Assembly (NCBI GenBank): GCA_964016885.1
Contig: OZ024749.1
Coordinates: 25,544,001-25,608,000, forward strand
From: Eledone cirrhosa
Taxonomy: Eukaryota
Length of the DNA: 64,000 nucleotides
Direction of reading: 5' to 3'
The notes below the pieces were generated by a model. The model was not told where the DNA came from. It searched no databases and saw only the letters and a list, made by a program, of their open reading frames with translations. Of the stretch, positions 21,790 to 64,000 are shown piece after piece. Position 1 is the first letter of the stretch, and the number at the start of each line of letters is the position of its first letter. The position numbers were made by a program, and so were the translations under genes.

Positions 21790-22240
21790 TAACTTGGAAG
21801 TATCGGTTGAGGATTGTACGCCATGCTTTCTAGCATTGTTACGCCCCATTGCGGTCTGAGGTCAAATCCCGACGAGGTTTACTTTGCCCTTCATCCTTAC
21901 GGGGTCGATAAAATAAAGTACCAGTAATGTACTGGGTAATTGCTGGCCTTGTGCCAAAAGTAGAAACAATTATAAGTGTAATTAATACAGTTACTGTTAT
22001 TTTCATAATCATTTCATTATTATTTCAATATTGGGCGCCCAATATAGGGCGGTGGATTGGCAGTATGGGTAGAGCATCGGACGTCATGATTTGACCATAG
22101 AGTTACGGCCCTTGCCATTCTGAGTTCAAATCCCGCCGAGGTTAAGTTTGCCTTTCATCCTTACGACGTCGATAAAATAAAGTACCAGTAAAGCACTGGG
22201 GTAATTGCTGGCCTTGTGCCAAAAGTAGAAACAATTATTA
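21790..22240 (+). mobile_element. Two SINE family-1 copies (21790-21972, 22048-22240)
   Basis: Consensus match with ATT tails. Confidence 0.9.
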
Positions 22241-22471
22241 TTTCAATATTATCATTATTTTCTTAACATACATTACATTATTATCATCATTTTTATTACT
22301 AATATTATTGTTGTCGGCCCTTGTGGCTAATAAATGAAATCTCTATTGTCATTATTAACATCACTATTTTATTGATATCATTATTAGTAGTAGTATTATT
22401 TTTGTTATTATTGGCATTATTGTTTTTAATTATAATATTGTTATTATTGTTAGTGTTATCAATATTATTTT

Positions 22472-23078
22472 ACGGACCTGCCCGAAATGCGCACAGAACG
22501 ACGAAACCGGCTATCGGCCGGGTCCATAGTGAGGATCGATCACCGCCTTCCTTAGGTCAGGAAGAGCAGGATATTTTCCTCTGTCTGGTGGCAGTTGCGA
22601 AAGAGGTTATATGGTGGACCAGGTTAAAAGGACTGAAGACAGACACTTTTCTCTTCAGCCAATCCCTCATCAACTTCTTCAACTTTCACCTGGAAACGAA
22701 GGTGAGGGTGGAAAGAGTGCTGCCCCCAGTACATTTTAAAAGGTGGGTGAATGTGGCGAGAATGGCTCGTGTGAATGGGCCTACTCTGACCATGCGCCTA
22801 TAGGCTAGCTAACTTGAGGAGACGGGTGCTCTCCCTGGGTGCCCTAGAAGCGCAGGGTGGTTCAGGATTGGTGGGGTACCCGAGTCACCCCAGGGTCGTC
22901 CACCCTCTATCCGGGGATTTATTTTGTTGTATTTATGCATAGTTTCTTTTATATTTTTATATTTTCATTGTTAAATTAGTCTTGCCATTATTGTAAACCC
23001 CACTGTCCCTGTCTTTGTATTGTGCCCTACATGTCGGCCCTTGTGGCTAATAAATGAAATCATTATTATTATTATTAT
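22472..23078 (+). mobile_element. 5'-truncated, internally deleted Tx1-like LINE subfamily B
   Basis: ..CLVAVAKEVIWWTRLKGLKTDTFLF..RWVNVARMARVNGPTLTMRL stop; distinct 3' UTR; (ATT)n tail. A ~30 bp isolated 3' end also lies at 22312-22342. Confidence 0.9.
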
Positions 23079-23116
23079 TCTTTGAGTCTCAGCCATTGAT
23101 GTTATTATATATGTAG

Positions 23117-23318
23117 GGCGCTGAATTAGCAGTATCGGTAGAGGGTCGGACGCCATGCTTTGAGAGCATACAGTTACGGCCCTTTATGGTCTGAGTTCAA
23201 ATCCCGCCGAGGTTAACTTTGCCTTTCATCCTTACGGGAGGTCGATAAAATAGAGTACCAGTAATACACTGGGTAATTGCTGGCCTTGTGCCAAAAGTAG
23301 AAACAATTATTATTATTA
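23117..23318 (+). mobile_element. SINE family 1, full length
   Basis: Consensus match. Confidence 0.9.
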
Positions 23319-23826
23319 TTCTTTGAGTTTCAGTCATTGATGTTATTTAACTGGAAAGTTTGTTGAAATGAATATCAAGCCGCTACCTGCAGCCTCAGAT
23401 ATTCAGGAGGTATCGGAGGGCTGTTGCTGTTCCCAGCAAGCATGCCTTTTGAAATGTTCTAAAAAGGCGGGCTGGACTAATTTTATTTAACCATCCTTGG
23501 AAACTCTTTGAGATAGTACCTAGTGCGCCTATGACAATCGGGACCACTTTGTCTTCATGGCAGTTCCAAATCCTTTTTACCTCCCACTTTAAGTCTTGGT
23601 ATAGGTTAATTTTCTCCCTCTCCTTTTCTTGCACTCTCGTGTCAAATGGGCAGGCTACATCTACAAACAGGCATGATCTTTTTTCCTTGTCCAAAACCAC
23701 CAGATCAGGCCTATTTTGTTCCAGTTTCTTGTCCCTCTGTATCCTAAAATCCCATCGCACCTTTACCTAAACGTTTTCTATCACCGACTCTGGTTTATGC
23801 TCATACCACTTCTCAGAATGCGGTAA

Positions 23827-23830
<4 letters not shown>
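23319..23830 (-). mobile_element. R4/Dong-like RLE retrotransposon, 5'-truncated, flanked by (TAA)n
   Basis: ORF 23395-23760: WDFRIQRD..NRPDLVV..VDVACPFD..EKINLYQDL..VPIVIGALG..QKACLLGTA. Confidence 0.92.
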
Positions 23831-23894
<64 letters not shown>

Positions 23895-23911
23895 CATTAT
23901 TATTATATTAT

Positions 23912-24046
23912 TGTTCTTTGAGTCTCAGTCATTCAAGTTATTTAACTGGAAAGTTTGTTGAAATGAATATCAAGCTGCTACCTGCGGTCTCGGACATTCA
24001 GGACGTATCGGAGGGTTCTTGCTGTTCCCAGCAAGCATGCCTTTTG
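23912..24046 (-). mobile_element. R4/Dong-like 3' terminal fragment
   Basis: Near-duplicate of 23319-23450 (QKACLLGTARTLRYVLN plus 3' UTR). Confidence 0.88.
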
Positions 24047-25205
24047 TTCCAAAAAGAGGATTGGGCATGCCATGGGTGATGATGCCCAAACATGCGTTGA
24101 GGCTGCGACATCTCTGGTGCTTCCTTGACGGTGAACAGGTGTGGTCGCCGTTCGCCAGGCACGTTTTCCCACAACTCTTCTCCTTGACGGAGCTGCTGTC
24201 CTGGGTCAGCAAAAAACTGAGGGATAGCGCTTGGAAACTAGAATGTCTCCAAGCGTTCACTGCCCTCTGCCTGCTGTGAACCAGTATCGGTGGAACATCC
24301 ACCTCGGTGTTCTATAGAGGACTAGTGGAGAGGAAGAGCGACGACGTTATCGGAGAATTTCAACCCATGGCTTATGGATATTTTCAAAAAATACCTGGCC
24401 TGGCAGTGCTACCGCAGAGCGTTGCTGGTTCGAGATAGGCTCTACAGGCACGAAAGTGCCGTCAGCCGAGCCTGTCCGAGATGCGCGCAGAGCGACGAAA
24501 CCGTCGTGCACGCACTCGTTCAGTGCCCGAGAATTGCTGACTTGTGGAGCTATGTCGAACAGTTGCTGTCGCGTGTACGACTGATCCGGTTATCCACTGA
24601 GTCCATTGTGCAGATGGTCTCGCCGTCTTCCTTTGAGGAGGAAGGGCAGGCTGTTTTCATCTGCCTGGTGGCCATGGCGAAAGAGATTGTGTGGTGGACA
24701 AGGCTGAAAGGGCTAAAGACAGACATTTTCCTCTTCGGCGAATCCCTGATTAACTTTTTCAAGTTTCACTTGAAGAGCAAAATCAGGGTGGAGAGACAAA
24801 TGCTGCCTTCTAGCAAGTTTGTTGAAAGGTGGGTGAATGTAGCGAGAATGGTCCGAGTGAACGGGACCACTCTGAATATACGCCTGTAGTTTGAGAAATG
24901 GAAAAATTGAGAGAAGGCGCTTGCCCTGGTGGTCAGGGTGGCCGTGGTCTTTTCTGTGGTTTTCGCCACGAGTAAGCCTCGGAGGTTTCCCCACTATTGG
25001 GGAATTTTCGTTGTTTCAATTTTCATTTTTATTGTTTATATATATATATATGTTTCTGTGTCTTTTTTTTTCTTTTCTTATATAGATAATAAAAATCTGT
25101 ACACGCACAATACCCCACACCGTACCGTCTTGTACCATCCTGTGCCGTCTGTAATGTTTTTCTTGATGTCACCCCTTGTGGCCAATAAAGAAATCATTAT
25201 TATTA

Positions 25206-25273
<68 letters not shown>
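24047..25273 (+). mobile_element. 5'-truncated Tx1-like LINE subfamily C with (ATT)n tail
   Basis: GLGMPW..CPRCAQSDETVVHALVQC..VNGTTLNIRL stop at 24889; 3' UTR; long ATT tail. Confidence 0.92.
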
Positions 25274-25481
25274 GGCGACCTACGTAGTAAATCGTATCAT
25301 CGTGAGCTCCGCAAAGGTTTGTTATTTCCGTTTGTTAAAAATTGCCATTCATGGAAAATTTTTATTGTTAACTATATATAAGCGCACATACATTGTTTTC
25401 CGAAAAGGACACCCAAAAAGATTTGGGCCTTGTGCCCAAATTTTAAACTTTTATTATTATCAAAAATGTCTTTTTAAAAAA

Positions 25482-27496
25482 ATGGCTAATTCACCTCTGC
25501 ACCAAGCAGCTGAAAGCCTTCCTCACAAAGTAACACCTCACACCGACACCACTATTGTAAATGTTACTACGTTTGCCAACACAAAAAAAATATAAGCAGT
25601 AGCAATATTTTAAATTTGTCTCAGGCAGACATTCATTTCCCGCCATTACCAATGACTGCAGGTGTTAAAGCCTCCACCACCACCACCACCGCGACAACCA
25701 CCAACCCCACCACCACCGCGACAACAGAAACAAAAGAAGAAAAAAATAAATTAACTCGTGATGTCGAAATGAAATCAAGCAAATTGGACTCTTCCCCACC
25801 AAAGACGACTGACGTCACCACCACCACAACTGAAACTAAAATTAATATTAACACAAATAACGATAGCAACAACAACAACAATGACATTATAAAACCGACC
25901 CTCAGTTTCGACAGAGTAGCAAAAGAGTTCGAAGCATTTACGGTAACTCAGGAGGATTTAGAAAATGCCAAACAAATGGTAATGAAAGATGGGTACAGGG
26001 TCAGCCTCACCCCCCCCCCCCCCCACCTAGTAAAATGGAGCATCGGCGCCTATGCACCGTGTCGTATAGAACAATAAATGTAAAATCGCGCCGAGTGGAA
26101 CGGGCATCCGAGTCCCAAATCCAAAAGGCTTTGGGCAAGAAAAACCCACATCAACGTGGGCAAAAGTATGGAACCGTGGACGTGTTCTTTGAAACACCAG
26201 AGGAGGCTAGAGAACACTCCATGGCCCCATTAAGAAGTGACGACTTCACACTCGTCCCAAGCTATTGTGGCCAGAGATTCGTAAAGATCAGGGTGACCCC
26301 CGTTCCACCGGCCATCGAAATTCCCTGGCTAATAGCGGCCGTCCTAGCCGGCATCGAAGCCAACACAAAAATAATAGCAATAGCAAAAGAAAAGCAGGAG
26401 AACTGGTCCGGATCTGGGATGGAGCTCCTGATCCAAGCGGACCAAAAAAGCATTGAGGAGATCCTAGAGGTAATAGACCTCACTGACGGCAGCCACCTCA
26501 CGGTAATTGTCGAGGGCAGAAGACCTAGGTGTGTCGTTTGTGGTGAAGGAACCCACCTAAGGGCTTTCTGCCCTCAGGCTAAAAGGTTGAGGCCACCTCT
26601 CCTACCCACCCTAGTGGTACAACCATCAACACCACCAGTAGCAGAGATGGCAGCAACAACTGTAGCAGCAACAACAGAAGCAACTATAACAGCAACAACC
26701 TCAGCAACAGTAGCAAAACCAACACCACCACCACCACAGCAAAACCAACACCACCACCACCACCAGCAAAACCAACACCACCACCACCCAACGCTTCAGA
26801 ACTAGCACCAGCGCCTACACCATCCACCACGCCACAACCAAAACTAACGCCTGTGGAGGATTTTCCACTCCCCGGCCTATCACAACTGGAGACAGATTGT
26901 GACGACGAGGAGTGGGAAACGATATCCGGAAAAAAAAAAGAAACCAAAAAAGAAAAAATTCTCTTCCTTCCCCCTCCAAAAACAAAATACAGAGGGAAAC
27001 AAATAAACTAAGAAACAAAAAAGTTAGGACAGATATGCCACCATCCACACCAGCATCACCAACCCCACCAACCCAAACATCAACACCATCACTATCATTA
27101 ACTCCAACACCACCATCACCTACACCACAAAAGTCACCAAAATGCGAAACAGAAACAAACCCACAATAAACGCAAACAAAACAAAACAACCAAAACGATA
27201 CACACTACACAGCATTAAATTTGAACAACAAGCAATTATTACACTACATCCAACACAACACCAACATCACAGAACAAGACTACACAACAACCCCAAAATT
27301 CACACCACCTCCACACATACAAATCACTCGCATCACACAGAAAACGTACATGACACTAAAACAAAAATTCCCCAAAGACATCGGAGACTTCCGACAAGCA
27401 CTCTCCAGGAGGATTTATAAGGACATGCTTCCTGAGGAGGCCACAAGCAGTGAATAGGATGGAAAAACCGTCCTTCCTCTACGAGAAGTAAGGTAA
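25482..27496 (+). pseudogene. LINE ORF1 type a (RRM-like region, single CCHC knuckle CVVCGEGTHLRAFC), frameshifted
   Basis: Track pieces 25616-26077, 26035-26805, 26912-27169, 27221-27457; reading through TAG 27455 gives DGKTVLPLREVR-TAA (27494-96), matching the copy 2 terminus DVKTIPPLPKVR-TAA. Confidence 0.85.
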
Positions 27497-27530
27497 GTGG
27501 TCTTTTCCATCTGTTCCACTCCTTTTCAAC

Positions 27531-30500
27531 ATGACCTCACTCAGAATAGGCAGCATAAATGCGCGTAGCTTGGGGTCGTCATGGAAGCAGGGCCACCTGC
27601 TCAACGACCTCAGGTCACTAGACATAGATGTAGTGGCCATCAGCGAGACCAGAATCTCCGAAGCACAGGTTTCACACCGATCTTCGGCGGCTACGATGTG
27701 TACGCATCTCCCAGCCGTCCGGGATCGGGGGGAGGAGTTGCTGTGCTTTTTCGGAGAGGTTTGGATCTTGCCATACGGGCCATCTTCCTGGACCCAGAAG
27801 GTAAGTTGGTGGTGCTGGACGTGACCAGCGGAGACGGGCAAGCTTTCAGGTTAGTGGCCGTCTATGCCCCGACAGGAGCAGGGCGGCCTGATTTCTTCCG
27901 GCGTCTGGAGACCTTTCTTGGAACGTCTCGCTCTTTAGTGTTAGTGGGCGACTGGAACGGGATCTTAGATGCACGCTGGGATTGTGTGGGATTAGTGGAT
28001 AGGGAAGGAGGGTGCAAGAGTCTCACCAACCTGCTCAGACGTTTTGAACTGTCTGACAGGTGCCGAATGGATTTCCCGAATGTACCAATGTGGACTTGGA
28101 CAAATCGCATAGGGTCATCCAGATCATATCTAGATAGTGTATTTTGTAGGGAAATAGATAGGTCTAGCATAGGCTGTCCACAATTCAAAATAGTCAGCTA
28201 CACGGACCACAAATTCGTGATCTGTGTGCTTGACTTAGATAGGCTTCATAGGCGAGGACCCGGCTACTGGAAGCTAAACGCGTTCTTACCAGCGCGCAAG
28301 GCCTACAGAGACCGGATTAGCGAACTAGTTAAGCGGGCGTTGACGGGAGCCATCGTCAACAACAAGTGGTGGTTTGCTCTGAAAAGAGCAATTAGAATAG
28401 AGTCCATTAGGTTTAGTAAGACTTTAGCAATAGAGAAAAATAGAACAGAGGGAGAACTAGTTAGAAAATTAGATGAGGCGCTTAGCAAAGGCATCGCGAC
28501 CGACGTACTTGCGGCGAAATTGGCCCTTGACCAATTCTTCAAAGCAAAGCACGAAGGCTGCGTTGTCAGAGCTAGGGTGCGTGCTCTCAGACACGAGGGG
28601 ACGAAAGCCGTTCAATGGGCCCGAGTGGCGGAGGCGCGTCGTGGCAACAAAGCCACGATCCGGTCTTTGGTGGACCACGACGGGCGCATGCTACTCGATC
28701 CCGGGCAAATGTGTGAAGCTTTTCAGCGACACTTCGCTCAACTGTTCGGGGGCAGTGGCGGGCCGGATCGAGGGATGGACTTTAGTGTCTACTTCGACGG
28801 ACTGCCGCGGCTTTCGGCCACTGAGGCGGAGTGTTGCGAAAAGCCGATAACAACCGCTGAAGTACGGGATGCAATGACTAGTTGCACAAGGGCTAAATCG
28901 CCTGGTTTGGATGGTCTGCCCTATGAACTTTACGTACAAATGCCAAACTTGTTCGGAGGCCTCTAGGCGGACGTCTACTGCAACTGGCAACAGAACGGGA
29001 GAATTCCCAGCTCTGTAAGCCGAGGAGCGGTGGCGCTGCTGAGAAAGGATCCGAACAAGGGGGATAACATAGATAATTTTAGGCCCATAACTCTGCTAAA
29101 CACAGAGTTTAAGATTTTGGCCAAGGTGCTAGCAAAGAGGTTGGCGCTTGTCGTTGGTGGTCTGGTGGGAGAGGCACAGACATGCGCCATTCCCGACAGA
29201 TCCATCCACGACAACCTCGACCTCATGCGATACATCGTAGAGAGGGTAGCTAGGGAACCTGGCACGGTGGGTCTTTGATCAATTTAGATCAGTCGAAAGC
29301 CTTCGATAGGGTCGACCATCGTTACCTAGAGGCAGTCCTGAGGGCGGCTGGCTTTGGGCCCGTCTTCAGAGGCTGGATCGCTGCCATGCACAGCGACATC
29401 TGCTCTGTAGTGAGAGTGAACGGTCACCTTTCGGAACCGTTCAACATCATGCGCTCGGTCCGCCAAGGATGTCCCCTCTCGTCCCTATTGTACGTATTGA
29501 CTCTCGAGCCATTACTGCACAAACTGGAGACGTTGAGGGGGATCCCGCGCGAACTAAGATGCGGAAGATCCGTGTCAGCATATGCCGACGATGTCACCGT
29601 AGTGGTGTCGATCGCCAAACACATCGAGGCGATCGGCACTACACTAAGAGAATACGAAGCGGTGACAGGTGCAATGATCAACCAAGAAAAGTCAGTCGGC
29701 CTGCAGCTCGGCACCTGGAGAGGCAGGTCCATGCCGTCCAACAGCGTCGTCGGGCGCTGGACAGACGGACCGGTTAAATTGCTAGGGGTCTGGTTCGGTC
29801 CAGACCTCCAGACGGACAAAAACTGGGACGAGGTGACGAGCAGGGTGGCTTCTCTCACCCAGAATTGGGCGGAGAGGTAGCTATCCCTGAAAGGTCGAGC
29901 GGAGGTGGCTAACGCGTACATCACGTCCGTCATCTACTACCGCCTGACCGTCGTACCTTGTCCTAAGCCCCGCCTGACTGCGCTGGAGCGTTTGCTCTTT
30001 CGCTTCTTGTGGAAGGGACGCGCTCCGATGGTCAGGCGGTCCATCTGCTGTCAACACACGCTACGTGGAGGGCTGGGCATGCCGTGGCTGATGATGCGCA
30101 GACACGCGCTCAGGTTACGACATCTCCACCTCTTCCTCGACGGTGATCAGGTGTGGTCGCCGTTTGCTAGACACGTTTTTCCCCAGCTCGTCTCCTTGAC
30201 GGAGCTGCAGTCCTGGGTCAAGCGAAGACCGAGAGGGAGCGCTTGGAGACTGGAATGTCTTCAGGCGCTCACAGCCCTCGACCAATCGGGCAATGTGATC
30301 GGTGGAAACTCCACCTTGGCGTTCTATAGGGGATTAGTGGAGGGGAAGAGCGACGACGTACTTGGAGAAACTCTAGGCGTCGACGAAAATCAACTAGCCA
30401 ATCTCTTCGGAAGGACTTTCGGGCCGGGGCCTATGGACAACTTCCAGAAATCCCTGGCCTGGCAGTGCTATCGGGGTGCTTTGCCAGTTCGGGATAAACT

Positions 30501-30948
30501 TTACAGGCATGGAGGTGCCGTCAGCCGGGCATGTCCGAGATGCGCACAGGGCGACGAAACCGTCCTGCACGCACTCGTCCAGTGTCCGAGCATTGCTGAC
30601 TTGTGGGTTTATGTCGAACACCTGCTGTCACGTGTAGGACGGATCCAGCTATCAGCTGAGTCCATCGTGAGAATTGCCCCGCCCTCTTCCTTTAGCCTGG
30701 AAGGGCAGCCAGTTTTTATCTGTCTGGTGGCCATGGCGAAAGAGATAGTATGGTGGACACGTTTGAAAGGGCTGAAGACGAGCACTTACCTCTTCGGTGA
30801 TGCCCTGATTAACTTTTTCAAATTTCATCTGAAAAGGAAAATCAGGGTAGAGAGGGAAGTGCTCTCTTCCCAGCATTTTGTTGAAAGATGGGTGAGAGAA
30901 GCAAGTATGGCCCGAATGAATGGGCCTTCTCTGAGTATGTGTCTGTAA
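27531..30948 (+). pseudogene. LINE ORF2 (APE endonuclease, reverse transcriptase, C-terminal zinc motif), disrupted
   Basis: GDWN, YTDH, KSPGLDG, FRPITLLN, KAFDRV, QGCPLS, YADD; frameshifts at ~27667 and ~29270, stops at 28964 and 29878. Confidence 0.95.
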
Positions 30949-31423
30949 ATTAAAGGTGGAAAACTGGGAGAGGGCACTTGCCCTGGTGGTCAGGGCCACT
31001 GTGGTTTTTTAATGGGCTTTCTCCACAAATGTCCATCGGAAGTCTCCCCCCTATTGGGGAATTTTTCTTTGTTATTTTATTTCATCCTCTGTTTTTTTTA
31101 CACGCAGAAATGCCCATTTGTACCGTCCTGTATTGTCCTGTACTGTCCTTAATGTCTACGTTATGTAAACCCTTGTGGTTAATAAAGAAAACATTATTAT
31201 TATTATTATTGAATGCCATGCTTGACGGAGGCTCGGCTCTGTAAGGTATAGTAATTTTTAACCGTTAAAACAATTGTAAATTGTTTAAAACTTGAACCAA
31301 ATTGTTGATAAAGACACCCTCCTCCTCGTGAGAGGGGTCTTTCTGTCCGTTATTTGGCCCTTCGGGGTTAAATAACCAGTTATTGGGGTTTTGTACCCAA
31401 AATTTCATTTTAAACAAAAAAAC

Positions 31424-33520
31424 ATGGCTACGAAAAAGAAATTTCATACGTCACTCCCACTCATTCCGTCTTCTTCTTCCTCAATCATCACTACAGCAGA
31501 GAGAAGATTGTCTCTCTCCCTCCCTTCTTTAAATGTGTCTCTCTCCCTCCCTTCTCTTTCGCAAGCGACGAAAGAAAAGAAAAGTCTCGTGCAAAGCGTG
31601 CAAGGTTTCTCCACGACGACGACGACAGCAACGAAACAGGTGTGCGGGAAATACGAAAACCCAGTTCATTCGTCTGACGTCAGGAATAATAGCAGTAGCA
31701 GCCGTAATAACAACAGCAACAGTGACAATGAAAACAACAGTAGCAGCCGCAACAGCATCACCAGCAGCATAAACAACAACAGCATTAGCAGCAGCAACAC
31801 CAACAACAACCACAGCAACAGCGGCGGAGGCAGTAGTCGTAGTACCTGCAGCAACAACAAAAGTACCAGCAGCTCTGACGACAACAACAACAGCAGAGAA
31901 AAACCAATCTCATTTGCAGGTATTGCGAAAAACTTGGAAACAATCCTCATAACAAATGAGGAATTAGAGGAAGCGAAGAAGATGGTGACAAAGAACGGAC
32001 ACCGAGCAATCTGCAAGGCAGCGGAAAAATTTTTCGAAACCCAAGAGCACTGTACGGTCACGTACCGTACAGTAAGTACAAAATCCCGTAGGGTGGAAAG
32101 AGCCACAGAGGCCCAAATACAAAAAGCCTTGGGGTCTGTGTGGCAGCGGAAAACGCACATCACCCGAGGCAAAAAATATGCCACCGTAGACGTACTTTTT
32201 GCCACACCCCAGGAGGCAAAGGCCCAATCAGTAGTGACCCTAAGGAGCGAGGAAATGGTGTTGGTGCCCTCCTACTGTGGGCAAAAAATTGTGAGGGTCA
32301 AACTGACCCACGTCCCCCCCGGAATGACCCCTTCTTGGCTGGCCGCGTCTGTCCTCGTCGGAATCGAGGACAAAACAACTGTACTGCAAGTACAGAAAAA
32401 AGTAAGAGAAGATTGGGTCGGCTCCTCCATTGAGATGCTAATCCAAACCAACCAGGAGTGCATCGAAGCTATCCCGGATGTGATAGACTTCGATAACGGC
32501 ACTCAACTGCCCATAAGTGTTGAGGGCAAACGCCCGAAATGCTTTCGCTGTGGATCGAAGACTCACCTCAGGGCCTTCTGCAACGAGAAGACCCTGAGAA
32601 AGGAGAAAACCCCCCTCCTTCCGAATCCGGCTCCACGGCTACCAGCAACAGGACAAGCGGCAACCAGGAACGATAGGCCCGTGGCACCCATACCCACTCC
32701 ACGGAAATCAAAAACAGCAGCAGCAGTGGAAATACTAACAACAACAACAGCAATACCAAATGCAGCTGCAACAGAGACTCCAGTGCAAACATCACCAACA
32801 ACAACAAGTGAAAGAGTGGAGCTGGTACCCCTCCCCGACCTCACAGAATCAGACATGGAGTGTGAGGTGGGAGAGAGATGGCAAAAGGTCGTAAGAAGGC
32901 ACAAACGCAGAAGCAGCGCATCGTCGCCTTTGAAAAGGGAGGAAAGAAATGAGAAAAGGGTAAAGTCTACTGCAAAGAGACCCACAGCAGCAACAACACC
33001 AACACCATCACCACCCACACTAGCGCCACCATCACCACCGGCGACAACCCCACCGCCAACAACACCTTCAACACCACCACCACAAGCACCAACATCGCAA
33101 ACACAACAACAAAACACACACACCCAGCAACAACGACAAGAAAATAGCAGAACCACACCCCACCCCCAGAAAAACAAATGCACGGCAATAAATACACACA
33201 ACAAGAAACTAATGACTTACATAATTGAACACACAGACATTTCACAACAGGACTACATAATACCAGCACCAATCAAAACGCCAACTAACATAAGACTGCT
33301 AAAAATAGCACAGAAACAATACACAAATATTAAAACGAAATTCCCCAACGCAGTTGGTGATTTCAGGGACCTAGGAGGAACCATCAATCGAAGAGTATAC
33401 TCAGATATTCTCTTAGAAGAGCCGACGACCAGCCGAAGGGACGATTCAACGGTCCCTTCACCAGACGATCAAGTGAAAAGGGATGTAAAAACCATCCCTC
33501 CTCTACCAAAAGTACGGTAA
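31424..33520 (+). CDS. LINE ORF1 type b, 698 aa from the first ATG; nucleic-acid-binding gag-like protein
   Basis: Open frame; SFAGIAK motif, RRM-like region, CFRCGSKTHLRAFC knuckle, basic WQKVVRRHKRR motif, Pro/Thr-rich linker. Confidence 0.9.
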   Translation: MATKKKFHTSLPLIPSSSSSIITTAERRLSLSLPSLNVSLSLPSLSQATKEKKSLVQSVQGFSTTTTTATKQVCGKYENPVHSSDVRNNSSSSRNNNSNSDNENNSSSRNSITSSINNNSISSSNTNNNHSNSGGGSSRSTCSNNKSTSSSDDNNNSREKPISFAGIAKNLETILITNEELEEAKKMVTKNGHRAICKAAEKFFETQEHCTVTYRTVSTKSRRVERATEAQIQKALGSVWQRKTHITRGKKYATVDVLFATPQEAKAQSVVTLRSEEMVLVPSYCGQKIVRVKLTHVPPGMTPSWLAASVLVGIEDKTTVLQVQKKVREDWVGSSIEMLIQTNQECIEAIPDVIDFDNGTQLPISVEGKRPKCFRCGSKTHLRAFCNEKTLRKEKTPLLPNPAPRLPATGQAATRNDRPVAPIPTPRKSKTAAAVEILTTTTAIPNAAATETPVQTSPTTTSERVELVPLPDLTESDMECEVGERWQKVVRRHKRRSSASSPLKREERNEKRVKSTAKRPTAATTPTPSPPTLAPPSPPATTPPPTTPSTPPPQAPTSQTQQQNTHTQQQRQENSRTTPHPQKNKCTAINTHNKKLMTYIIEHTDISQQDYIIPAPIKTPTNIRLLKIAQKQYTNIKTKFPNAVGDFRDLGGTINRRVYSDILLEEPTTSRRDDSTVPSPDDQVKRDVKTIPPLPKVR

Positions 33521-33555
33521 GTGGTCTTTCCCATCTTTTCCACTCTATTTTAAAC

Positions 33556-36500
33556 ATGACCTCACTCAGAATAGGCAGCATAAATGCGCGTGGCTTGGGG
33601 TCGTCATGGAAGCAGGGTCACCTGCTCAACGACCTCAGGTCACTAAACATAGATGTAGTGGCCATCAGCGAGACCAGAATCTCCGAAGCACGGGCCTTCG
33701 CACCGATCTTCGGCGGCTACGATGTGTACGCATCTCCCAGCCGTCCTGGATCCGGTGGAGGACTTGCTGTGCTTTTTCGGAGAGGTTTGGATCTCGCCAT
33801 ACGGGCCATCTTCCTGGACCCAGAGGGTAAGCTGGTGGTGCTGGACGTGACCAGCGGAGACGGGCAAGCTTTCAGGCTAGTGGCCGTCTATGCCCCGACA
33901 GGAGCAGGGCGGCCTGATTTCTTCCGGCGTCTGGAGACCTTTCTTGGAACGTCCCGCTCTTTAGTGTTAGTGGGCGACTGGAACGGGATCTTAGATGCAC
34001 GCTGGGACTGTGTGGGATTAGCGGATAGGGGTGGAGGGTGCAAGAGCCTCACCAACCTGCTCAGGCGTTTTGAACTGTCTGACAGGTACCGATTGGATTT
34101 CCCGAATGTGCCAATGTGGACTTGGACAAACCGCATAGGGTCATCCAGATCATATCTAGATAGAGTATTTTGTAGGGAAATAGATAGGTCTAGCATAGGC
34201 TGTCCACAATTCAAGATAGTCAGCTACACGGACCACAAATTCGTGACCTGTGTGCTTGACTTAGATAGGCTTCATAGACGAGGACCCGGCTACTGGAAGC
34301 TAAACGCGTCCTTACCAGCGCGCAAGGCCTACAGAGACCGGATTAGCGAACTAGTTAAGCGGGCGTTGACGGGGGCCATCGTCAACAACAAGTGGTGGTT
34401 TGCTCTGAAAAGAGCGATTAGAATAGAATCGATTAGGTTTAGTAAGGCTTTAGCAATAGAGAAAAATAGAGCAGAGGGAGAACTAGTTAGAAAATTAGAC
34501 GAGGCGCTTAGCAAAGGCATTGCGACCGACGTGCTTGCGGCGAAATTGGCCCTTGACCAATTCTTCAATGCAAAGCACGAAGGCTGCGTTGTCAGAGCTA
34601 GGGTGCGTGCTCTCAGACACGAGGGGACGAAAGCCGTTCAATGGGCCCGAGTGGCGGAGGCGCGTCGTGGCAACAAAGCCACGATCCGGTCTTTGGTGGA
34701 CCACGACGGGCGCATGCTACTCGATCCCGGGCAAATGTGTGAAGCTTTTCAGCGACACTTCGCTCAGCTGTTCGGGGGCAGCGGGGGGCCGGGTAGAGGG
34801 ATGGACTTTAGTGTCTACCTCAACGGACTGCCGCGGCTCTCGGCCACTGAGGCGAAGTGTTGCGAAAAGCCGATAACAGCCGCTGAAGTAAGGGAGGCAA
34901 TGACTGGCTGCACAAGGGGTAAATCGCCTGGTTTGGATGGTCTGCCCTATGAACTTTACGTACAGATGCCAGACTTGTTCGGAGGCCTCTTGGCGGACGT
35001 CTACTGCAACTGGCAACAGAACGGGAGAATTCCCAGTTCTGTGAGCCGAGGAGCGGTGGCACTGCTGAGAAAGGATCCGAACAAGGGGGATAACATAGAA
35101 AATTTCCGGCCCATAACTCTGCTAAACACAGAGTTTAAGATTTTGGCCAAGGTGCTAGCAAAGAGGTTGGCGCTTGTCGTTGGTGGTCTGGTGGGAGAGG
35201 CGCAGACATGCGCCATTCCCGACAGATCCATCCACGACAACCTCCACCTCATGCGATACATCGTAGAGAGGGTAGCTAGGGAACCTGGCACGGGTGGGTC
35301 CTTGATCAATTTAGATCAGTCGAAAGCTTTCGATAGGGTCGACCATCGTTACCTAGCGGCAGTCCTGAGGGCGGCTGGCTTTGGGCCCGTCTTCAGAGGC
35401 TGGATCGCTGCCATGCACAGCGACATCTGCTCTGTGGTGAGAGTGAACGGTCACCTTTCGGAACCGTTCAACATCATGCGCTCGGTCCGCCAAGGATGTC
35501 CCCTCTCGTCCCTCTTGTACGTATTGACTCTCGAGCCATTACTGCACAAACTGGAGACGTTGAGGGGAGTCCCGCGCGAACTAGGATGCGGAAGATCCGT
35601 GTCAGCATATGCGGACGATGTCACCGTAGTGGTGTCGAACGCCAAACACATCGAGGCGATCGGCACTACACTAAGAGAATACGAAGCGGTGACAGGAGCA
35701 ATGATCAACCAAGAAAAGTCAGTGGGCCTGCAGCTCGGCACCTGGAGAGGCAGGTCCATGCCGTCCAACAGCGTCGTCGGGCGCTGGACGGACGGACCGG
35801 TTAAATTGCTAGGGGTCTGGTTCGGTCCGGACCTCCAGACGGACAAAAACTGGGACGAGGTGACGAGCAGGGTGGCTTCTCTCACCCAGAAATGGACGGA
35901 GAGGAAGCTATCCCTGAAAGGTCGAGCGGAGGTGGCTAACGCGTACATCGCGTCTGTCATCTGCTACCGCCTAACCGTCGTACCTTGTCCTAAGCCTCGC
36001 CTGACTGCGCTGGAGCGTTTGCTCTTTCGCTTTTTGTGGAAGGGACGTGCTCCGATGGTCAGGCGGTCCATCTGTTGTCAACACCCGCTACGTGGAGGGC
36101 TGGGCATGCCGTGGCTGATGATGCGCAGGCACGCGCTCAGGCTACGACATCTCCACCTCTTCCTCGACGGTGATCAGGTGTGGTCGCCGTTTGCTAGACG
36201 CGTCTTTCCCCAGCTCGTTTCCTTGACGGAGCTGCAGTCCTGGGTCAAGTGAAGACCGAGAGGGAGCGCCTGGAGACTGGAATGTCTTCAGGCGCTCACA
36301 GCCCTCGACCAATCGGGCAATGTGATCGGTGGAAACTCCACCTCGGCGTTCTATAGAGGATTAGTGGAGGGGAAGAGCGACGACGTACTTGGGGAAACTC
36401 TAGGCGTCGACGAAAATCAACTAGCCAATCTCTTCGGAAGAACTTTCGGGCCAGGGCCTATGGACAACTTCCAGAAATCTCTGGCCTGGCAGTGCTACCG

Positions 36501-36975
36501 AGGAGCCTTGCCAGTTCGGGATAAACTCTACAGGCATGGAGGTGCCGTCAGCCGGGCATGTCCGAGATGCGCGCAGGGCGACGAAACCGTCCTGCACGCA
36601 CTCGTCCAGTGTCCGAAAATTGATGACTTGTGGGTTTATGTCGAACACCTGCTGTCGCGTTTTGGACGGATCCAGCTATCATCTGAGTCTATCGTGAGGA
36701 TTGCCCCGCCCTCCTCCTTTAGCCGGGAAGGGCAGGCAGTTTTTATCTGTCTGGTGGCCATGGCGAAAGTGATAGTATGGTGGACACGTTTGAAAGGGCT
36801 GAAGACGAGCACTTACCTCTTCGGTGATGCTCTGATTGACTTTTTCAAATTTCATTTGAAAAGGAAAATCAGAGTAGAGAAGGAAGTGCTCTCTTCCCAG
36901 CATTTTGTTGAAAGATGGGTGAGAGAAGCAAGAATGGCCCGAGTGAATGGGCCGACTCTGAGTATATATCTGTAA
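33556..36975 (+). pseudogene. LINE ORF2 (APE-RT-zinc motif), 1139 codons with a single premature TGA at 36250-36252
   Basis: ORFs 33556-36252 and 36322-36975 are in the same frame; copy 1 has CGA (Arg) at the equivalent position. Confidence 0.95.
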
Positions 36976-37239
36976 ACTAAAGGTGGAAAACTGGGAGAGG
37001 GCACTTGCCTTGGTGGTCAGGGTCATTGTGGCTTTTTACTGGGCTTTCTCCACAAATGTCCCTCCGAAGTCTCCCCCCTATTGGGGAATTTTTCATTGTT
37101 ATTTTCATTGTTATTTTTGTTACATCCTCTGTTTTTGTTTTTTTTACACGCAGAAATGATGCCCATTTGTACCGTCCTGCATTGTCCTGCACTGTCCTTA
37201 ATGTCTACTTTATGTAAACCCTTGTGGTTAATAAAGAAA

Positions 37240-37286
<47 letters not shown>

Positions 37287-43604: not shown

Positions 43605-43893
43605 GGAGGGGGGTGTCTTGTACCCTCACGCGCTTCAGGCCATGAAACTGGGATAAGCACGGGCCAAATGGGCCTTTTGGCTTAAGACAGACTTTAGACA
43701 TTATATATGTGGATTAGCAGTATCGGTAGAGGGTCGGACGCCATGCTTTGACGTATAGAGTTGTGGCCCTTGCCATTCTGAGTTCAAATCCCGCCGAGGT
43801 TAACTTAGCCTTTTATCCTTACAGGGTCGATAAACTAAAGTACCAGTAATGCACTGGATATTTTCTGGCATTGTGCCAAACGTAGAAACAATT
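43605..43893 (+). mobile_element. SINE family 2 3' fragment (43605-43700) followed by SINE family 1 (43708-43893)
   Basis: Consensus matches. Confidence 0.8.
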
Positions 43894-43934
43894 TTATATA
43901 TATATATATATATAAGTTCATATATATATATATA

Positions 43935-50380: not shown

Positions 50381-50391
50381 ATGATAATAAT

Positions 50392-50580
50392 AATTGTTTC
50401 TACGTTTTGGCACAAGGCCAGCAATTACCCAGTGCATTGCTGCTACTTTATTTGATCGACCTCGTAAGGATGAAAGGCAAAGTTAACCTCGGCGGGATTT
50501 GAACTCAGACCATAAAGGGCCGTAACTCTTTGCTGCAAAGCATGGTGTCCGACCCTCTACTGATACTGCCAATACACCGC
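50392..50580 (-). mobile_element. SINE family 1, full length, flanked by (AAT)n
   Basis: Consensus match. Confidence 0.9.
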
Positions 50581-50811
50581 ATAATAATGGTCTCTAATTT
50601 AGGCAAATAGCCAACAATTTTGTAGGGAAGGGATAGTCGATCAAATCGACATTCCCCTCCACCAAACTTGTTGGTTTGGTGCCTATAAGAGACACGTTAG
50701 GACTCAGTTGTGTTTCAGAATCAAACAGCTCGTTGGATAATTTATGGTTCGAATTCTTTTTACCGTTGAGTAGATTAAACGAAACAGTTTCTTTCTTTGT
50801 TGTAGAAGTAT

Positions 50812-51116
50812 GACTTGACTTGACGGCACTCTGTCAAGTGTTCCAATTGATACGATCAGCGGAACAGTCTGCTCGTGAAACTAACGTGCAAGTGGCTGAG
50901 CATTCCACAAAAACGCGTACCGTTAATGATCAGCTTGGCACATAATGTGATACGACTGGTCTTTAGAATTACAGGTACAACTCATGTATGCCAGCTGAGT
51001 GGACTGGAGCAACGAGAGATGAGGTTTCTTGCTCAAGGATACAAGCCACCAGCAGGAATCGAACTCACGACCTTATGATTGTGAGCCGAATGCCATAACT
51101 TCAAAGCCACGCACCT
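50812..51116 (-). mobile_element. SINE family 3 (tRNA head, CORE-like block, (GTCAA)n tail) with 12 bp TSD
   Basis: Minus strand GTGGCT..GAGTTCGATTCC..CCTTGAGCAAGAAAC; TSD TTGTAGAAGTAT at 50800-50811 and 51117-51128. Confidence 0.85.
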
Positions 51117-51824
51117 TTGTAGAAGTATAACCTGATAGAATATGACGTACATATTAATAATAACCAGACATGCCAACCTTATGAACCGGATGTCTGACTT
51201 TTCAATATACAAACTTATGAAAACTCACAAATCACCACGTCTTCAAATGAACGCATCATCATAAACCATCCAATAATTTATAAGTTTCACTGGAGTATCA
51301 CCAAATATTTCGTAACAAGATATTTCTATTTCCTTATTAGATGTCGAATTTATAGTTCATCTTCAATCTTTACTCATATATCAATATTCATATACATTTT
51401 CAATAAATATTTAATTGATTGTACGTTCTAGAGGGTTCAAATATTTGGGATATTATTGATGTCATTTTGTTTTTGTTTTTGCTTTCCGACTTGCTAGGAT
51501 TGAAGAAAGAGAATTTACCAGTGATATATCATCTTCTGTTAATATTTCGGTGGTGGGGGTGTTGGTAATATCACTTTTTAATTGTGTAGTTCAGTGTAGT
51601 GACCCGAATATAATTATTTATCAATTGAAACTACACATATACTGAGCAAAATGTTATTAACGTCAATGGCTTGTTTTAGCAAGGGATAAAGGGACGCAAT
51701 TCGTGATTTCAATTTATTAAGAATTGAATGGTGGCACGTTTTCTTCTCATTAAGTCTCATACAGTTAACAAATAAGAAGTGGCTGAAGCAATTTGAAGAG
51801 AAAGTGAAAATGAATTAAATAGAC

Positions 51825-51977
51825 TCCAATGCGTTACTGGTATTTTATGTTACCGACCCAGTAAAGATAAGATACAAAGCTAACACCAGCGGGATTTGAA
51901 CTCAGAACGCAAAGGGATGTAACTACATGTCATAAAACATGTTGTCCGACGCTCTACCAATACTGCCATCCACCGCA
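51825..51977 (-). mobile_element. Diverged SINE family 1
   Basis: GGGATTTGAACTCAGA..CTGCCATCCACCGC. Confidence 0.75.
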
Positions 51978-53523: not shown

Positions 53524-53573
<50 letters not shown>

Positions 53574-59552: not shown

Positions 59553-62500
59553 GTGGAGTTTCCACCGATCACAATTCCCGATTGGTCGAGGGCTGTGAGC
59601 GCCTGAAGACATTCCAGTTTCCAAGCGCCCCCTCTCGGACTTCGCTTGACCCAGGACTGCAGCTCCGCCAAGGAGACGACCTGGGGAAAGACGTGTCTAG
59701 TAAACGGCGACCACACCTGATCACCTTCGAGGAAGAGGTGGAGATGTCGTAGCCTGAGCGGGTGTCTGCACATCATCAGCCACGGCATGCCCAGCCCTCC
59801 ACTTAGCGGGTGTTGACAGCAGATGGACCGCCTGACCATCGGAGCGCGTCCCTTCCACAAAAAGCGAAAGAGCAAACGCTCCAGCGCAGCCAGGCGGGCC
59901 TTAGGACAAGGTACGACGGCCAGGCGGTAGTAGATGACGGACGCGATTTACGCGTTAGCCACCTCCGCTCAACCTTTCAGGGATAGCTTCCTCTACGCCC
60001 ATTTCTGGGCGAGTGAAGCCACCCTGCTCGTTACCTCGTCCCAGTTTTTGTCTGTCTGGAGGTCCGGACCGAACCAGACCCCGAACAATTTACCCGGTCC
60101 GTCCGTCAAGCGCCCGAGGATCAGGTGCCGAGCTGCAGGCCCACTGACTTTTCCAGGTTGATTATTGCTCCTGTCACCGCTTCGTATTCTCTTAGTATAG
60201 TGCCGATCGCCTCGATGTGTTTGGCGTTCGACACCACTACGGTGACATCGTCCGCATAAGCTGACACGGATCTTCCGCATCCAAGTTCGCGCGGGACCCC
60301 CTTCAACGTCTCCAGTTTGTGCAGTAATGGCTCGAGAGTCAATACGTATAAGAGGGACGAGAGGGGACATCCTTGTCGGACGAGCGCATGATGTTGGACG
60401 GTTCCGAAAGGTGATAGTTCACTCTCACCACAGAGCAGATGTGGCTGTGCATGGCAGCGATCCAGCCTCTGAAGATGGGCCCAAATCCAGCCGCCCTCAG
60501 GACTGCCGCTAGGTAACGATGGTCGACCCTATCGAAAGCTTTCGACTGATCTAAATTGATCGGCACAGCTCCTCGGCTCACAGAGCTGGGAATTCACCCG
60601 TTCTGTTGCCAGTTGCAGTAGACGTCCGCCAAGAGGCCTCCGAACAAGTCTGGCATCTGTACGTAAACATCATAGGGCAGACCATACAAACCAGGCTTTA
60701 CCACTTGTGTAGCCAGTAAATGCCTCCCGTACTTCAGCGGCTGTTATCGGCTTTTCGCAACATTCAGCCTCAGTAACCAAGAGCCGCGACAGTCCGTCGA
60801 GGTAGACACTAAAGTCCATCCCTCGATCCGGCCCGCCGCTTCCCCCGAACAGCTGTGCGAGGTCTCGGTGAAAAGCTTCACACATTTGCCCGAGATCGAG
60901 TAGCATGCGCCCGTCGTGGTCCACCAAATATCGGATCGTGGCTTTGTTGCCACGACGCGCCTCCGCCACTCGGGCCCATTGAACGGCTTTCGTCCCCTCG
61001 TGTCTGAGAGCACGCACCCTAGCTCTGACAACGCAGCCATCGTGCTTTGCATTGAAGAATTTTTCAAGGGCCAATTTCGCCGCAAGTACGTCGTTGCTAA
61101 GCGCCTCGTCTAATTTTCTAACTAGTTCTCCCTCTGCTCTATTTTTCTCTATTGTTAAAGCCTTACTAAATCTAATGGACACTATTCTAATTGCTCTTTT
61201 CAGAGCAAACCACCACTTCTTATTGACGATGGCCCCTGTCAACGCCCGCTTAACTAGTTCGCTAATCCGTTCTCTGTAGGCGTTCCAGTAGCCGGGACTT
61301 GTCTATGAAGCCTATCTAAGTCAAGCACACAGATCACGAATGTGTGGTCCGTGTAGCTGACTATCTTGAATTGTGGACAGCCTATGCTAGACCTATCTAT
61401 TTCCATACAAAATACTCTATCTAGACATGATCTGGATGACCCAATGCGATTTGTCCAAGTCCACATTAGCACATTCGGGAAATCCAATCGGTACCTGTCA
61501 GACAGTTCAAAACGCCTGAGCAGGTTGGTGAGGCTCTTACACCCTCCTCCCCTACTCGCTAATCCCACACAGACTCAGCGTGCATCTAAGATCCCGTTCC
61601 AGTCGCCCACTAACACTAAAGAGCGGGACGTTCCAAGAAAGGACTCCAGACGCCGGAAGAAATCAAGCCGCCCTGCTCCTGTCGGGGCATAGACGGCTAC
61701 TAACGTGAAAGCTTCCCCGTCGCCGCTGGTCACGTCTAGCACCACCAACTTACCTTCTGGGTCCAGGAAGATGGCCCGTATGGCGAGATCCAAACATCTC
61801 CGAAAAAGCACAGGAACTCCTCCCCCGATCCCGGACGGCTGGGAGATGCGTACACATCGTAGCCGCCGAAGATCGGTGCGAAGGCCCGTGCTTCGGAGAT
61901 TCTGGTCTCGCTGATGGCCACTACATCTATGTTTAGTGACCTGAGGTCGTTGAGCAGGTGGCCCTGCTTCCACAACGACCCCAAGCCACGCGCATTTATG
62001 CTGCCTAATCTGAGTGAGGTCATGTTGAAATGGAGTAGAAAAGATGGGAAATACCACTTACCTTACTTCTCGTAGATGGTTTGTCCATCCTTGACACTGC
62101 CTGTGGTCTCCTCTGGAAGGATGTCCTTATAAATCCTCCTGGAGAGTGTTTGTCGGAAGTCTCCAATGTCTTTGGGGAATTTTTGTTTTAGTGTCGTGTA
62201 CGTTTTCTGTGTAATGCGAGTGATTTGCATGTCTGTAGGTGGTGTGAACTTTTGGGTTGTTGTGTAGTCTTTTTCTGTGATGCTGGTGTTGTGTTGCATG
62301 TAGTGTAATAATTGGTTGTTGTTCAAATTTAATGCTGTGTAGTGTGTATCGTTTTGGTTGTTTTGTTTTGTAGGCGTTTGTTGTGGGTTTGTTTCTGTTT
62401 CGCTTTTTGGTGACTTTTGTGGTGTTGGTGATGGTGGTGTAGGGTTTAATGATGGTGATGGTGTTGGTGTTTGTGGTGATGTGGTTGGTGATGCTGGTGT

Positions 62501-64000
62501 GGATGGTGGCATATCTGTCCTAACTATTTTGTTTGATAGTTTATTTGTTTCCCTCTGTATTTTGTTTTTGGAGGGGGAAGGAAGAGAATTTTTTCTTTTT
62601 TGGTTTCTTTTTTTCTTTTTTCCTGATACCGTTTCCCACTCCTCGTCGTCACAATCTGTCTCCAGTTGTGATAGGCCGGGGAGTGTAAAATCCTCCACAG
62701 GCTTTGGTTTTGGTTGTGGCGTGGTGGATGGTGGAAGCGCTGGTGCTAGTTCTGAAGCGTTGGGTGGTGGTGGTGTTGTTTTGCTACTGTTGCTGGGTTT
62801 GTTGCTGTTACAGTTGCTTCTGTTGTTGCTGCTACAGTTGTTGCTGCCATTTCTGCTGCTGGTGGTGTTGATGGTTGAGTCACTGGGGTGGGTAAGAGAG
62901 GTGGCCTCAACCTTGTAGCCTGAGGGCAGAAAGCCCTTTGGTGGGTTCCTTCACCACAAACGACACACCTAGGGCTTCTGCCCTTGACGATTAAGGTGAG
63001 CTGGCTGCCGTCAGTGAGGTCTATTACCTCTGGGATCTCCTCAATGCTTTTATGGTCCGCTTGGATCAGGAGCTCCATCCCAGATCCGGACCAGTTCTCC
63101 AGCTTTTCTTTCGCTATTTCAATTATCTTGGTGTTGGCCTCGATGCCGGCGAGGACGGCAGCCATTAGCCAGGGAATTTCGATGGCCGGTGGAACGTGGG
63201 TCACCCTGATCTTCGCAAGTTTCTAGCCACAATAGATTGGGACGAGTGTGAAGTCGTCACTTCTTAATGGGGCCATGGAGTGTTCTCTGGCCTCCTGTGG
63301 TGTTTCAAAGACGTCCACGGTTCCATATTTCTGGCCACGTCTGATGTGGGTTTTGTTTGCCCACACATGTTCCAAAGCTTTTTGCATTTTGGACTCGGAT
63401 GCCCGTTCCACTCGGCGCGATTTTATCCAATAAGACACGGTGCATAGGCGACGATGCTCCATTTTATTAGGTGAGAGGGGGGTGAGGCTGGCGCTGTACC
63501 CATCTTTGTTTACCATTCCTTTGGCTTCTTCTAATTCCTCCCGAGTTACCTGGACCGCATCGCACGTTTTTGCTACTCTGGCAAAACTCAGGGTAGTTTT
63601 CTTAATTTCATTGTTGCTGTTGTTATCGTTATTTTTGTTATTGTTAATTTTAGTTTCAGTTGTGGTGGTGGTGGTGGTGGTGGTGGTGGCGTCAGTGGTT
63701 TTCGGTGTGGAAGAGTTCATATTGGTTGAATTCATTTCGATATCACGAGTTTCTTTTGTTTCTGTTGTCGCTGTGGTGGTGGTGGGGGTGGCGGCTTTAA
63801 CACCTGCAGTCATTGGTAATGGCGGGAAATGAACGTCTGTCTGAGACAAATTTAAAATATTGCTACTGCTTACATTTCCAGTGTTGGCAAACGTAGCAAT
63901 ATTTACAATGGTGGTGTCGGTGTGAGTTGTTTGTTTGTGAGGAAGGAGTGACCCTGAGTCATCCATGATTTTTCAAAGAAAAATGTTTGTTTGATAATTA
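59553..64000 (-). mobile_element. Tx1/L1-clade LINE, copy 3 (ORF1 type a), degenerate, 3' end deleted, running off the window
   Basis: ORF1 pieces 63966-62063 are homologous to copy 1; ORF2 from ATG 62023 has frameshifts and an internal deletion near 60565. Confidence 0.95.

What the first reader, a model, noticed from the sequence alone, without database searches (positions are those of the whole stretch)
25274..37280. Two diverged 5'UTR-ORF1 modules on one near-identical ORF2
Seen: copies 1 and 3 share ORF1 type a, and copy 2 has type b. The two ORF1s are homologous (KSRRVERA, RPxCxxCGxxTHLRAFC, GDFR..RRxYxD) but visibly diverged, and the 5' UTRs of copies 1 and 2 do not align. ORF2 and the 3' UTR are almost base-for-base identical. 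High identity starts abruptly ~35 nt upstream of the putative splice donor (GGATG.AAAAACC.TCC.TCCTCTAC). Established: L1 families recruit new 5' ends. Inference: a recent recombination or template switch at the ORF1 end exchanged whole promoter-ORF1 cassettes while keeping the donor site.
Basis: partly seen in the sequence, partly recalled or inferred. Interest (0 to 1): 0.7.

Follow-up and report, generated by a model that had tools for sequence, protein, structure and literature searches.

The report
Chimeric LINE cut at splice-donor motif
A young jumping-gene (LINE) family with over 2,000 copies in what is likely an octopus genome is a hybrid of the front end of one older family and the enzyme gene of another; such swaps are known from mouse, but here the join lies exactly at a splice-donor-like signal, likely from a reverse-transcriptase jump and possibly from RNA splicing.

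Summary
Confirmed and extended. Copies 1 and 2 are 95% identical over ORF2 and the 3' UTR, but only about 63% in the ORF1 core, with a sharp step. I found the missing parent: lineage D carries copy 2's 5'UTR-ORF1 (about 85-97% identical) on an ORF2 only about 82% identical. ORF1 and ORF2 trees conflict (AU p<1e-4 both ways). So type b (at least 2,387 copies) is D's front on lineage a's ORF2. It is a one-way capture, not an exchange. The junction resolves to 2 nt (AG microhomology). D sequence stops exactly at the exon end of D's own AAG|GTAAGT motif. It is followed by a's last 42 ORF1 nt, so the shared stretch comes from the recipient. That point is also the foot of a predicted RNA helix. Best reading: RT template switch (0.5); rival: splicing of D-to-a RNA (0.35). 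Against splicing: the acceptor is weak, no spliced retrocopies were found, and a second swap (C) crosses over in register inside ORF2.

The parts
24056..25273 (+). 5'-truncated 3' fragment of the D/C ORF2 lineage with (ATT)n tail, head-to-tail before copy 1
   Evidence: 88% to D and C references, 75% to a and b
25274..31210 (+). Copy 1, full-length LINE of lineage a (ORF1a about 25482-27496, ORF2 about 27531-30948, both broken by frameshifts or stops), (ATT)n tail
27451..27492 (+). Last 42 nt of ORF1a before the donor-like motif (predicted 8-bp hairpin), preceded by CAG; the recipient-side segment kept in type b
27491..27498 (+). AG|GTAAGT donor-like motif overlapping the ORF1a stop codon
   Evidence: sequence
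31211..33473 (+). Copy 2, D-derived module: 5' UTR plus all but the last ~15 codons of ORF1b (ORF1b 31424-33520, 698 aa, intact)
   Evidence: about 85-97% to 14 D loci from nucleotide 1 on; ORF1 core 92-96% to D, 63% to a
33435..33459 (+). D-derived predicted hairpin (8 bp) just upstream of where D's own donor-like motif lay
33472..33474 (+). Chimera junction GATCAAG|TGAAAAGG: D sequence ends at the exon end of D's AAG|GTAAGT; AG microhomology with a's CAG|TGAAAAGG
33474..33516 (+). a-derived ORF1 end (43 nt after a later +G), second hairpin 33479-33499 kept through stepwise changes
   Evidence: intermediates L179-L184; hairpin variants
33516..33552 (+). a-derived donor-like motif and pyrimidine-rich spacer; predicted 5' arm of a long-range helix
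33556..36975 (+). Copy 2 ORF2 (APE endonuclease, RT, zf-RVT), lineage a; one in-frame TGA at 36250
   Evidence: Pfam; 95-96% to copy 1, 81-82% to D
36982..37009 (+). Start of 3' UTR; predicted 3' arm of the long-range helix
   Evidence: duplex -40.5 kcal/mol against a best of -31.7 in 335 other windows
37010..37282 (+). Rest of copy 2 3' UTR and (ATT)n tail
59553..64000 (-). Copy 3, older lineage-a element with internal deletions, 3'-truncated; its 5' end lies just past the window

Best explanation
Type b is a chimeric LINE made of lineage D's 5'UTR-ORF1 joined out of register to lineage a's last 42 ORF1 bases, spacer, ORF2 and 3' UTR, and it likely arose once when reverse transcriptase jumped from an a RNA to a D RNA at a 2-nt AG microhomology. 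SHOWN: the parents, the direction, a single junction, and intermediate forms that later regained a's reading frame through a +G. INFERRED: the RT copied through a's spacer and hairpin and landed on D RNA just 5' of a helix that begins at D's GGTAAGTG. The product survived because it kept a's spacer, which is predicted to pair best with a's own 3' UTR, and kept an ORF1 stop next to it. The new promoter and ORF1 then accompanied a burst of copies; cause and effect is not shown. The chimera itself is about 0.97 certain; the confidence given is for the template-switch route.
For: Parent found: 14 D loci match copy 2 from its first bases to ~2,260 at about 85-97%, then drop to about 75-89%. ORF1-core tree rejects a+b as one clade (p-AU 5.8e-5); ORF2 tree rejects b+D (p-AU 2.7e-6) and supports a+b at 100/100. 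b nests inside paraphyletic a in ORF2. Short-microhomology joints are the norm in these families: 64 of 202 candidate junctions resolved, mostly 0-3 nt overlap, and 0 of 202 scored GT-AG (crude). A second swap (C = F front + D ORF2) crosses over in register ~350 nt inside ORF2. D's cut lies at the foot of predicted local and long-range helices. Cognate spacer/3'UTR duplexes are 4.5-11.5 kcal/mol stronger than cross-lineage ones. Mouse L1 Tf/Gf families took 5'UTR+ORF1 from L1MdF, and strand switching is among the proposed causes (PMC3600994, passages).
Against: A cut exactly at D's exon end is expected in only 0.9-3.4% of viable products under a uniform-switch model. The recipient side is a CAG, as a splice would need. 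The better microhomologies nearby were not used: 0 copies with a crossover in the shared 10-nt AAGGTAAGTG, and no CAAG-CAG-TGAA or GTAAG-TGAA intermediate among at least 2,387 b junctions. The helices are predictions only. Template switching was not observed directly.
Confidence: 0.5

Rival explanations
1. Spliceosome-defined origin. D's AG|GTAAGT was used as a real 5' splice site, joined in cis (read-through of a D-then-a tandem array) or in trans to a cryptic CAG acceptor in a's ORF1 end. Alternatively the freed 5' exon end served as the jump or ligation partner. The joined RNA was then retrotransposed and founded family b.
For: The product is exactly what such a splice gives, in one step: 28 of 30 D loci read ATCAAG|GTA at this point, one has a point change before and one after; the earliest b copies read GATCAAG|TGAAAAGGATGGAGAAACC; old a copies have CAG before the join (93 of 104 matches). 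Chance of the coincidence is 1-3%. D-then-a head-to-tail arrays exist (L197; L250; the window's own D/C fragment before copy 1). Precedents: SVA_F1 arose by splicing of MAST2 (PMC3287187 passage); host exons end at splice donors in L1 chimeras (bioRxiv 2025.02.02.635956 passages).
Against: The acceptor is the poorest of the four CAG sites in the 170 nt upstream of a's motif: 5 pyrimidines in 17 nt, against 11 for an in-phase CTCTCCAG 42 nt upstream. No spliced retrocopy from any lineage's motif was found: pattern searches gave only point changes, 4-40 nt deletions and small inversions; the patterns miss part of the possible next bases. The motif may be conserved as the top of an RNA helix, not as a splice site. 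It is a single event.
Confidence: 0.35
2. DNA-level origin: a 5'-truncated a element integrated into, or recombined ectopically with, a genomic D copy at its ORF1 end. The D promoter then transcribed the hybrid.
For: The lineages sit side by side in arrays, and mosaics occur (L202: D front, a-type 3' part). PMC3600994 notes that young 3' ends recruit older 5' ends, which fits pairing with a genomic copy (passage). D copies are older (about 6% apart).
Against: The family inserts in (ATT)n tracts (flanks), and CAAG|GTAAG is not such a site. It does not explain the exact position. No founder locus was found.
Confidence: 0.1
3. No swap: ORF1 simply evolves faster than ORF2.
For: ORF1 has low-complexity, indel-rich regions.
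Against: Within lineages both parts diverge alike (copy 1 vs 3: 92.1/93.6%; D vs D: 93.7/93.7%). Copy 2 vs D is 92-96% in ORF1 but 81% in ORF2, the reverse pattern. AU tests reject congruence.
Confidence: 0.01

Closest known systems
Mouse L1 recombinant families L1MdTf and L1MdGf (PMC3600994, passages seen)
   Same: New active family formed by putting the 5'UTR+ORF1 of an older lineage on the ORF2 of a younger one.
   Different: Mouse breakpoints lie inside ORF2; 'splic' does not occur in that paper's text. Here parents are much more diverged (ORF1 ~61%, ORF2 ~82%), and the join is out of register, duplicates a 14-codon hairpin module and falls on a donor-like motif. The C swap seen here matches the mouse pattern.
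SVA_F1 (MAST2 exon acquired by splicing; PMC3287187, passage seen)
   Same: A retrotransposon subfamily founded by a new 5' end, if the splice reading is right.
   Different: SVA is non-autonomous and the exon is a host gene's. Here both partners are autonomous LINEs and a whole ORF1 is replaced.
mRNA/LINE-1 chimeras and RAP1GDS1/L1PA2 (bioRxiv 10.1101/2025.02.02.635956, abstract and passages seen); SpIREs (PMC5860796, abstract seen)
   Same: 5' partners ending precisely at splice donors, sometimes with no clear acceptor in the LINE.
   Different: Those are a few insertions or dead ends with host exons or internal deletions, not a LINE-to-LINE ORF1 transfer that produced thousands of copies.
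Microsatellite-targeting Tx1-group LINEs Kibi, Koshi and crocodilian Tx1 (PMC4494074, passages seen)
   Same: Two ORFs, APE-RT-zinc finger ORF2, insertion in simple repeats.
   Different: Target here is (ATT)n, not (TC)n, (TTC)n, (TTCC)n or (TTTC)n; placement in Tx1 was not tested by phylogeny.

Membership tests
L1-group non-LTR retrotransposon (L1/Tx1) | ORF2 with N-terminal APE endonuclease, RT and C-terminal zinc finger | tested here: met
   Pfam Exo_endo_phos, RVT_1, zf-RVT; best solved relative is human LINE-1 ORF2p, E 8e-53
L1-group non-LTR retrotransposon (L1/Tx1) | Separate ORF1 upstream, 3' simple-repeat tail, 5'-truncated copies, no LTRs | tested here: met
   AATAAA followed by an (ATT)n tail
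Tx1 clade | RT phylogeny groups with Tx1L, Kibi, Koshi | not tested
   No named Tx1 references were available from the tools; the label rests on architecture and earlier scan notes
Tx1 clade | ORF1 with CCHC zinc knuckle | tested here: inconclusive
   One CxxCxxxxHxxxxC motif is visible in both ORF1s; no Pfam match above cut-off
Tx1 clade | Preference for a repeated target | tested here: met
   15 of 20 fetched b0/D loci could be read at the 5' end and all 15 abut an (ATT)n tract; target-site duplications cannot be read in such tracts
Recombinant LINE family (5' module recruitment) | Incongruent trees on the two sides of a breakpoint, both parents present | tested here: met
Splice-born retrotransposon subfamily (SVA_F1, SpIRE type) | 5' partner ends exactly at a GT donor | tested here: met
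   (within the 2-nt AG ambiguity)
Splice-born retrotransposon subfamily (SVA_F1, SpIRE type) | 3' partner begins after a credible acceptor (YAG with pyrimidine tract) | tested here: inconclusive
   CAG present, pyrimidine tract poor
Splice-born retrotransposon subfamily (SVA_F1, SpIRE type) | Donor shown to be used in RNA | not testable with these tools
   No RNA holder listed; no spliced retrocopies

The most novel reading that the evidence does not exclude
The conserved donor motif at the end of ORF1 is a real splice site that lets these LINEs trade whole promoter-ORF1 cassettes by splicing within their own head-to-tail arrays; one such spliced RNA founded an autonomous family of more than 2,000 copies. 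That would be exon shuffling between LINEs as a fourth route to new families, and the junction would be fossil evidence that the motif is used.
Probability: 0.35. Interest if true: 0.75.

Novelty: new variant of a known kind. Interest (0 to 1): 0.5.

Why it matters
How LINE families acquire new 5' ends is an open question; the mouse paper lists three models without deciding. Here both parents, the earliest hybrids and the stepwise repair of the ORF1 end are all still in one genome, so the event can be read to within two bases. It shows what must travel with ORF2 (hairpin, donor-like motif, spacer matched to the 3' UTR) and that an ORF1 about 50% different in protein works with it, judging by the copy number. 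If splicing made the join, tandem-targeting LINEs have a built-in way to swap promoter and ORF1, which I did not find described in seven literature searches.

Tried and rejected
Rate difference: rejected. Reading the shared 42 nt as conserved donor-lineage sequence that hosted a homologous crossover: rejected; it is a-derived, as early b copies match old a there. L038 looked like a b/a recombinant in the spacer but carries a-type spacer states also seen in early b. Two-step routes via CAAG or AGTGA microhomology: no intermediates (2 hits, one an early b variant, one unrelated). Spliced retrocopies: none. L236/L237 first looked like a spliced mini-intron but are a 6-nt deletion. Idea that type a itself was made by a join at the same CAG: no support. 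One search's pattern excluded the target by my error, and one search's pattern also excludes GT directly after CAG, so this is only partly tested; its 3 hits were deletions. A donor for the a-type ORF1 was not found (only older a). RNA evidence: no RNA holder listed; contigs of four runs of unrecorded kind showed no GT-AG joint at the motif among 15 rows shown, 306 not shown; this is not evidence either way. The junction survey left 138 of 202 rows unresolved, and its output was cut. In one search, 10 of the 33 loci I listed were dropped by the motif filter, and L150 had a misextracted ORF1 core (long branch), which lowers support for b+D (71/55). Pfam gave no ORF1 family.
Full report
Observation. 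The region holds two head-to-tail, full-length two-ORF LINEs, each ending in AATAAA and (ATT)n: copy 1 (25274-31210) and copy 2 (31211-37282); copy 3 lies on the minus strand at 59553-64000. ORF2 has APE, RT and zf-RVT domains, and its best solved relative is human L1 ORF2p. The closest named protein hit is from Argonauta hians at 58%, so the host is likely an octopod (inference). Copies 1 and 2 align at 95.1% over 3,788 columns from 27449/33472 on, at about 64% in the ORF1 core, and not collinearly in the first ~790 nt. Copies 1 and 3 align throughout. ORF1-core dS is saturated, while ORF2 dS is 0.06-0.13.

Both types are large families. The b junction motif occurs 2,387 times (exact matches, so a lower bound). 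A spacer pattern covering a, early b and C gives 2,804; the intact D/C motif gives 431. In an ORF2 tree of 87 loci plus copy 3, the 30 b copies (0.8% apart; chosen as best hits, so biased young) nest inside paraphyletic a. Type a is therefore ancestral on this ORF2 and b was acquired.

The donor lineage. Following the D/C-type fragment just upstream of copy 1 led to L106, whose ORF1 end matches copy 2 at 89-96% but whose ORF2 does not. Thirty such loci and 14 longer fetches define lineage D: about 85-97% to copy 2 from its first bases to ~2,260, then about 75-89%. ORF1-core/ORF2 identities to copy 2 are 96.4/81.3% for L192, 92.1/81.6% for L196 and 62.6/95.9% for copy 1. On 26 rows, the ORF1 tree rejects a+b (p-AU 5.8e-5), and the ORF2 tree rejects b+D (p-AU 2.7e-6) and holds a+b at 100/100. 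Support for b+D in ORF1 was only 71/55 because one row was misextracted.

The junction. D reads ...CCAGACGATCAAG|GTAAGTGA; old a reads ...GCCACAAGCAG|TGAAAAGGATGGAGAAACC...GTAAG|GTAAGTGG; b reads ...GACGATCAAG|TGAAAAGG. Five early b copies lack the later +G. L180 is D-like up to the join and differs from old a by one base in the next 42. Later copies gain +G, which restores a's frame, and further changes that keep an 8- then 7-bp hairpin. The overlap is two bases, AG. The two ORF1 ends appear homologous (each has a hairpin 14-17 nt before the motif), so b carries this module twice: the join is out of register by one module.

Mechanism, for splicing. A uniform-switch model over viable products puts the cut there in 0.9-3.4% of cases. 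The recipient has CAG at the join in 93 of 104 matches. D-then-a arrays exist (L197; L250). No intermediate from the longer neighbouring microhomologies was found, though a crossover in the shared 10-nt motif would fuse ORF1 to ORF2 in frame and likely be dead (inference from the sequence).

Mechanism, against splicing. The acceptor has the weakest pyrimidine tract of the four upstream CAG sites. Five pattern searches for sequences leaving the motif found 22 hits, all point changes, small deletions, insertions or inversions. Other joints in these families show 0-3 nt overlaps, and none scored GT-AG (crude). Prompted by an earlier scan note (e1-8673698), I checked pairing: the GGTAAGTG motif is the top of a predicted helix with the 3' UTR start, stronger than any of 328-335 other windows in each of four elements and stronger for cognate pairs. 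This explains why a's spacer was kept and gives a non-splice reason for a break at that spot. Finally, a second swap exists: most C copies (for example L256, L260, L266) match lineage F (L269, L253, L262, L276) through ORF1 and the first ~350 nt of ORF2, then match D, by an in-register crossover. I put template switch at 0.5, splice-defined origin at 0.35, DNA-level at 0.1; these are judgements, not computed values.

Comparison. 5'UTR+ORF1 recruitment is known in mouse L1 (PMC3600994, passages; PMC5381506, passages). Splice-born 5' ends are known for SVA_F1 (PMC3287187, passage), host-exon/L1 chimeras (bioRxiv 2025.02.02.635956, abstract and passages) and SpIREs (PMC5860796, abstract). A 2026 review of TE chimeric RNAs (PMC13690279, passages) shows no LINE-to-LINE ORF1 transfer in the passages seen. 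Seven searches (listings only, except the papers named) gave no report of this family or of a LINE family founded by a join at another LINE's ORF1-end donor. The library lacks most subscription papers and Repbase, and I read no supplements. Earlier scan notes describe the motif, an ORF2-as-intron idea and the helix on other windows (8 of 51 shown); a word search for the swap returned nothing.

Verdict. A real, well-resolved 5'-module capture: a new variant of a known kind, with one unusual and testable feature resting on a single event. Interest 0.5.

Noticed in passing
L253-L282 (G000 loci); L094, L100, L108: Second 5'-module swap: family C has the ORF1 and first ~350 nt of ORF2 of lineage F (L269, L253, L262, L276) on D's ORF2, with an in-register crossover.
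   Followed up: partly
window 33516-33552 with 36982-37009; 27492-27528 with the 3' UTR start of copy 1: Spacer pairs with the start of the 3' UTR (predicted -34 to -41 kcal/mol), lineage-matched; the helix begins at the donor-like motif.
   Followed up: partly
window 33435-33459, 33479-33499, and about 27455-27475: Each lineage has an 8-bp hairpin 14-17 nt before the motif; b has both, and its a-derived hairpin survived a +G through a T-to-C change.
   Followed up: partly
D loci L111-L140 versus window 27491-27498: The AG|GTAAGT motif sits in different codon phases in D (ORF1 ends GGT AAG TGA) and a/b (ends AGG/CGG TAA).
   Followed up: partly
window 22480-23060, 24056-25273, 25274-37282; G000:C1:179624847-179637311, C1:55427431-55453369: Elements of several lineages stack head-to-tail in (ATT)n tails; b arrays with ~6 kb spacing recur. 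The fragment at 22480-23060 is a further lineage, 72-76% to all references.
   Followed up: no
L246, L249, L236/L237, L147, L148, L250: Small deletions and inversions at the ORF1-end motif and hairpin in single copies (the search patterns select for these).
   Followed up: partly
window 23380-24050 and 59105-59556 (+): Fragments of a second, minus-strand non-LTR-like element (WDF...NRPD motif, recalled) flank the D/C fragment and copy 3, 89% alike.
   Followed up: no
window 705-1343, 6373-8611, 21800-23320, 43700-43900, 50385-55477: Dispersed ~100-270 nt SINE-like repeat, often next to (ATT)n tracts and to these LINEs.
   Followed up: no
L285 (G000:C6:30612931-30616281): An a-type copy in which nearly all of ORF2 is missing, joined just after the ATG to the 3' end; not a GT-AG junction.
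   Followed up: no
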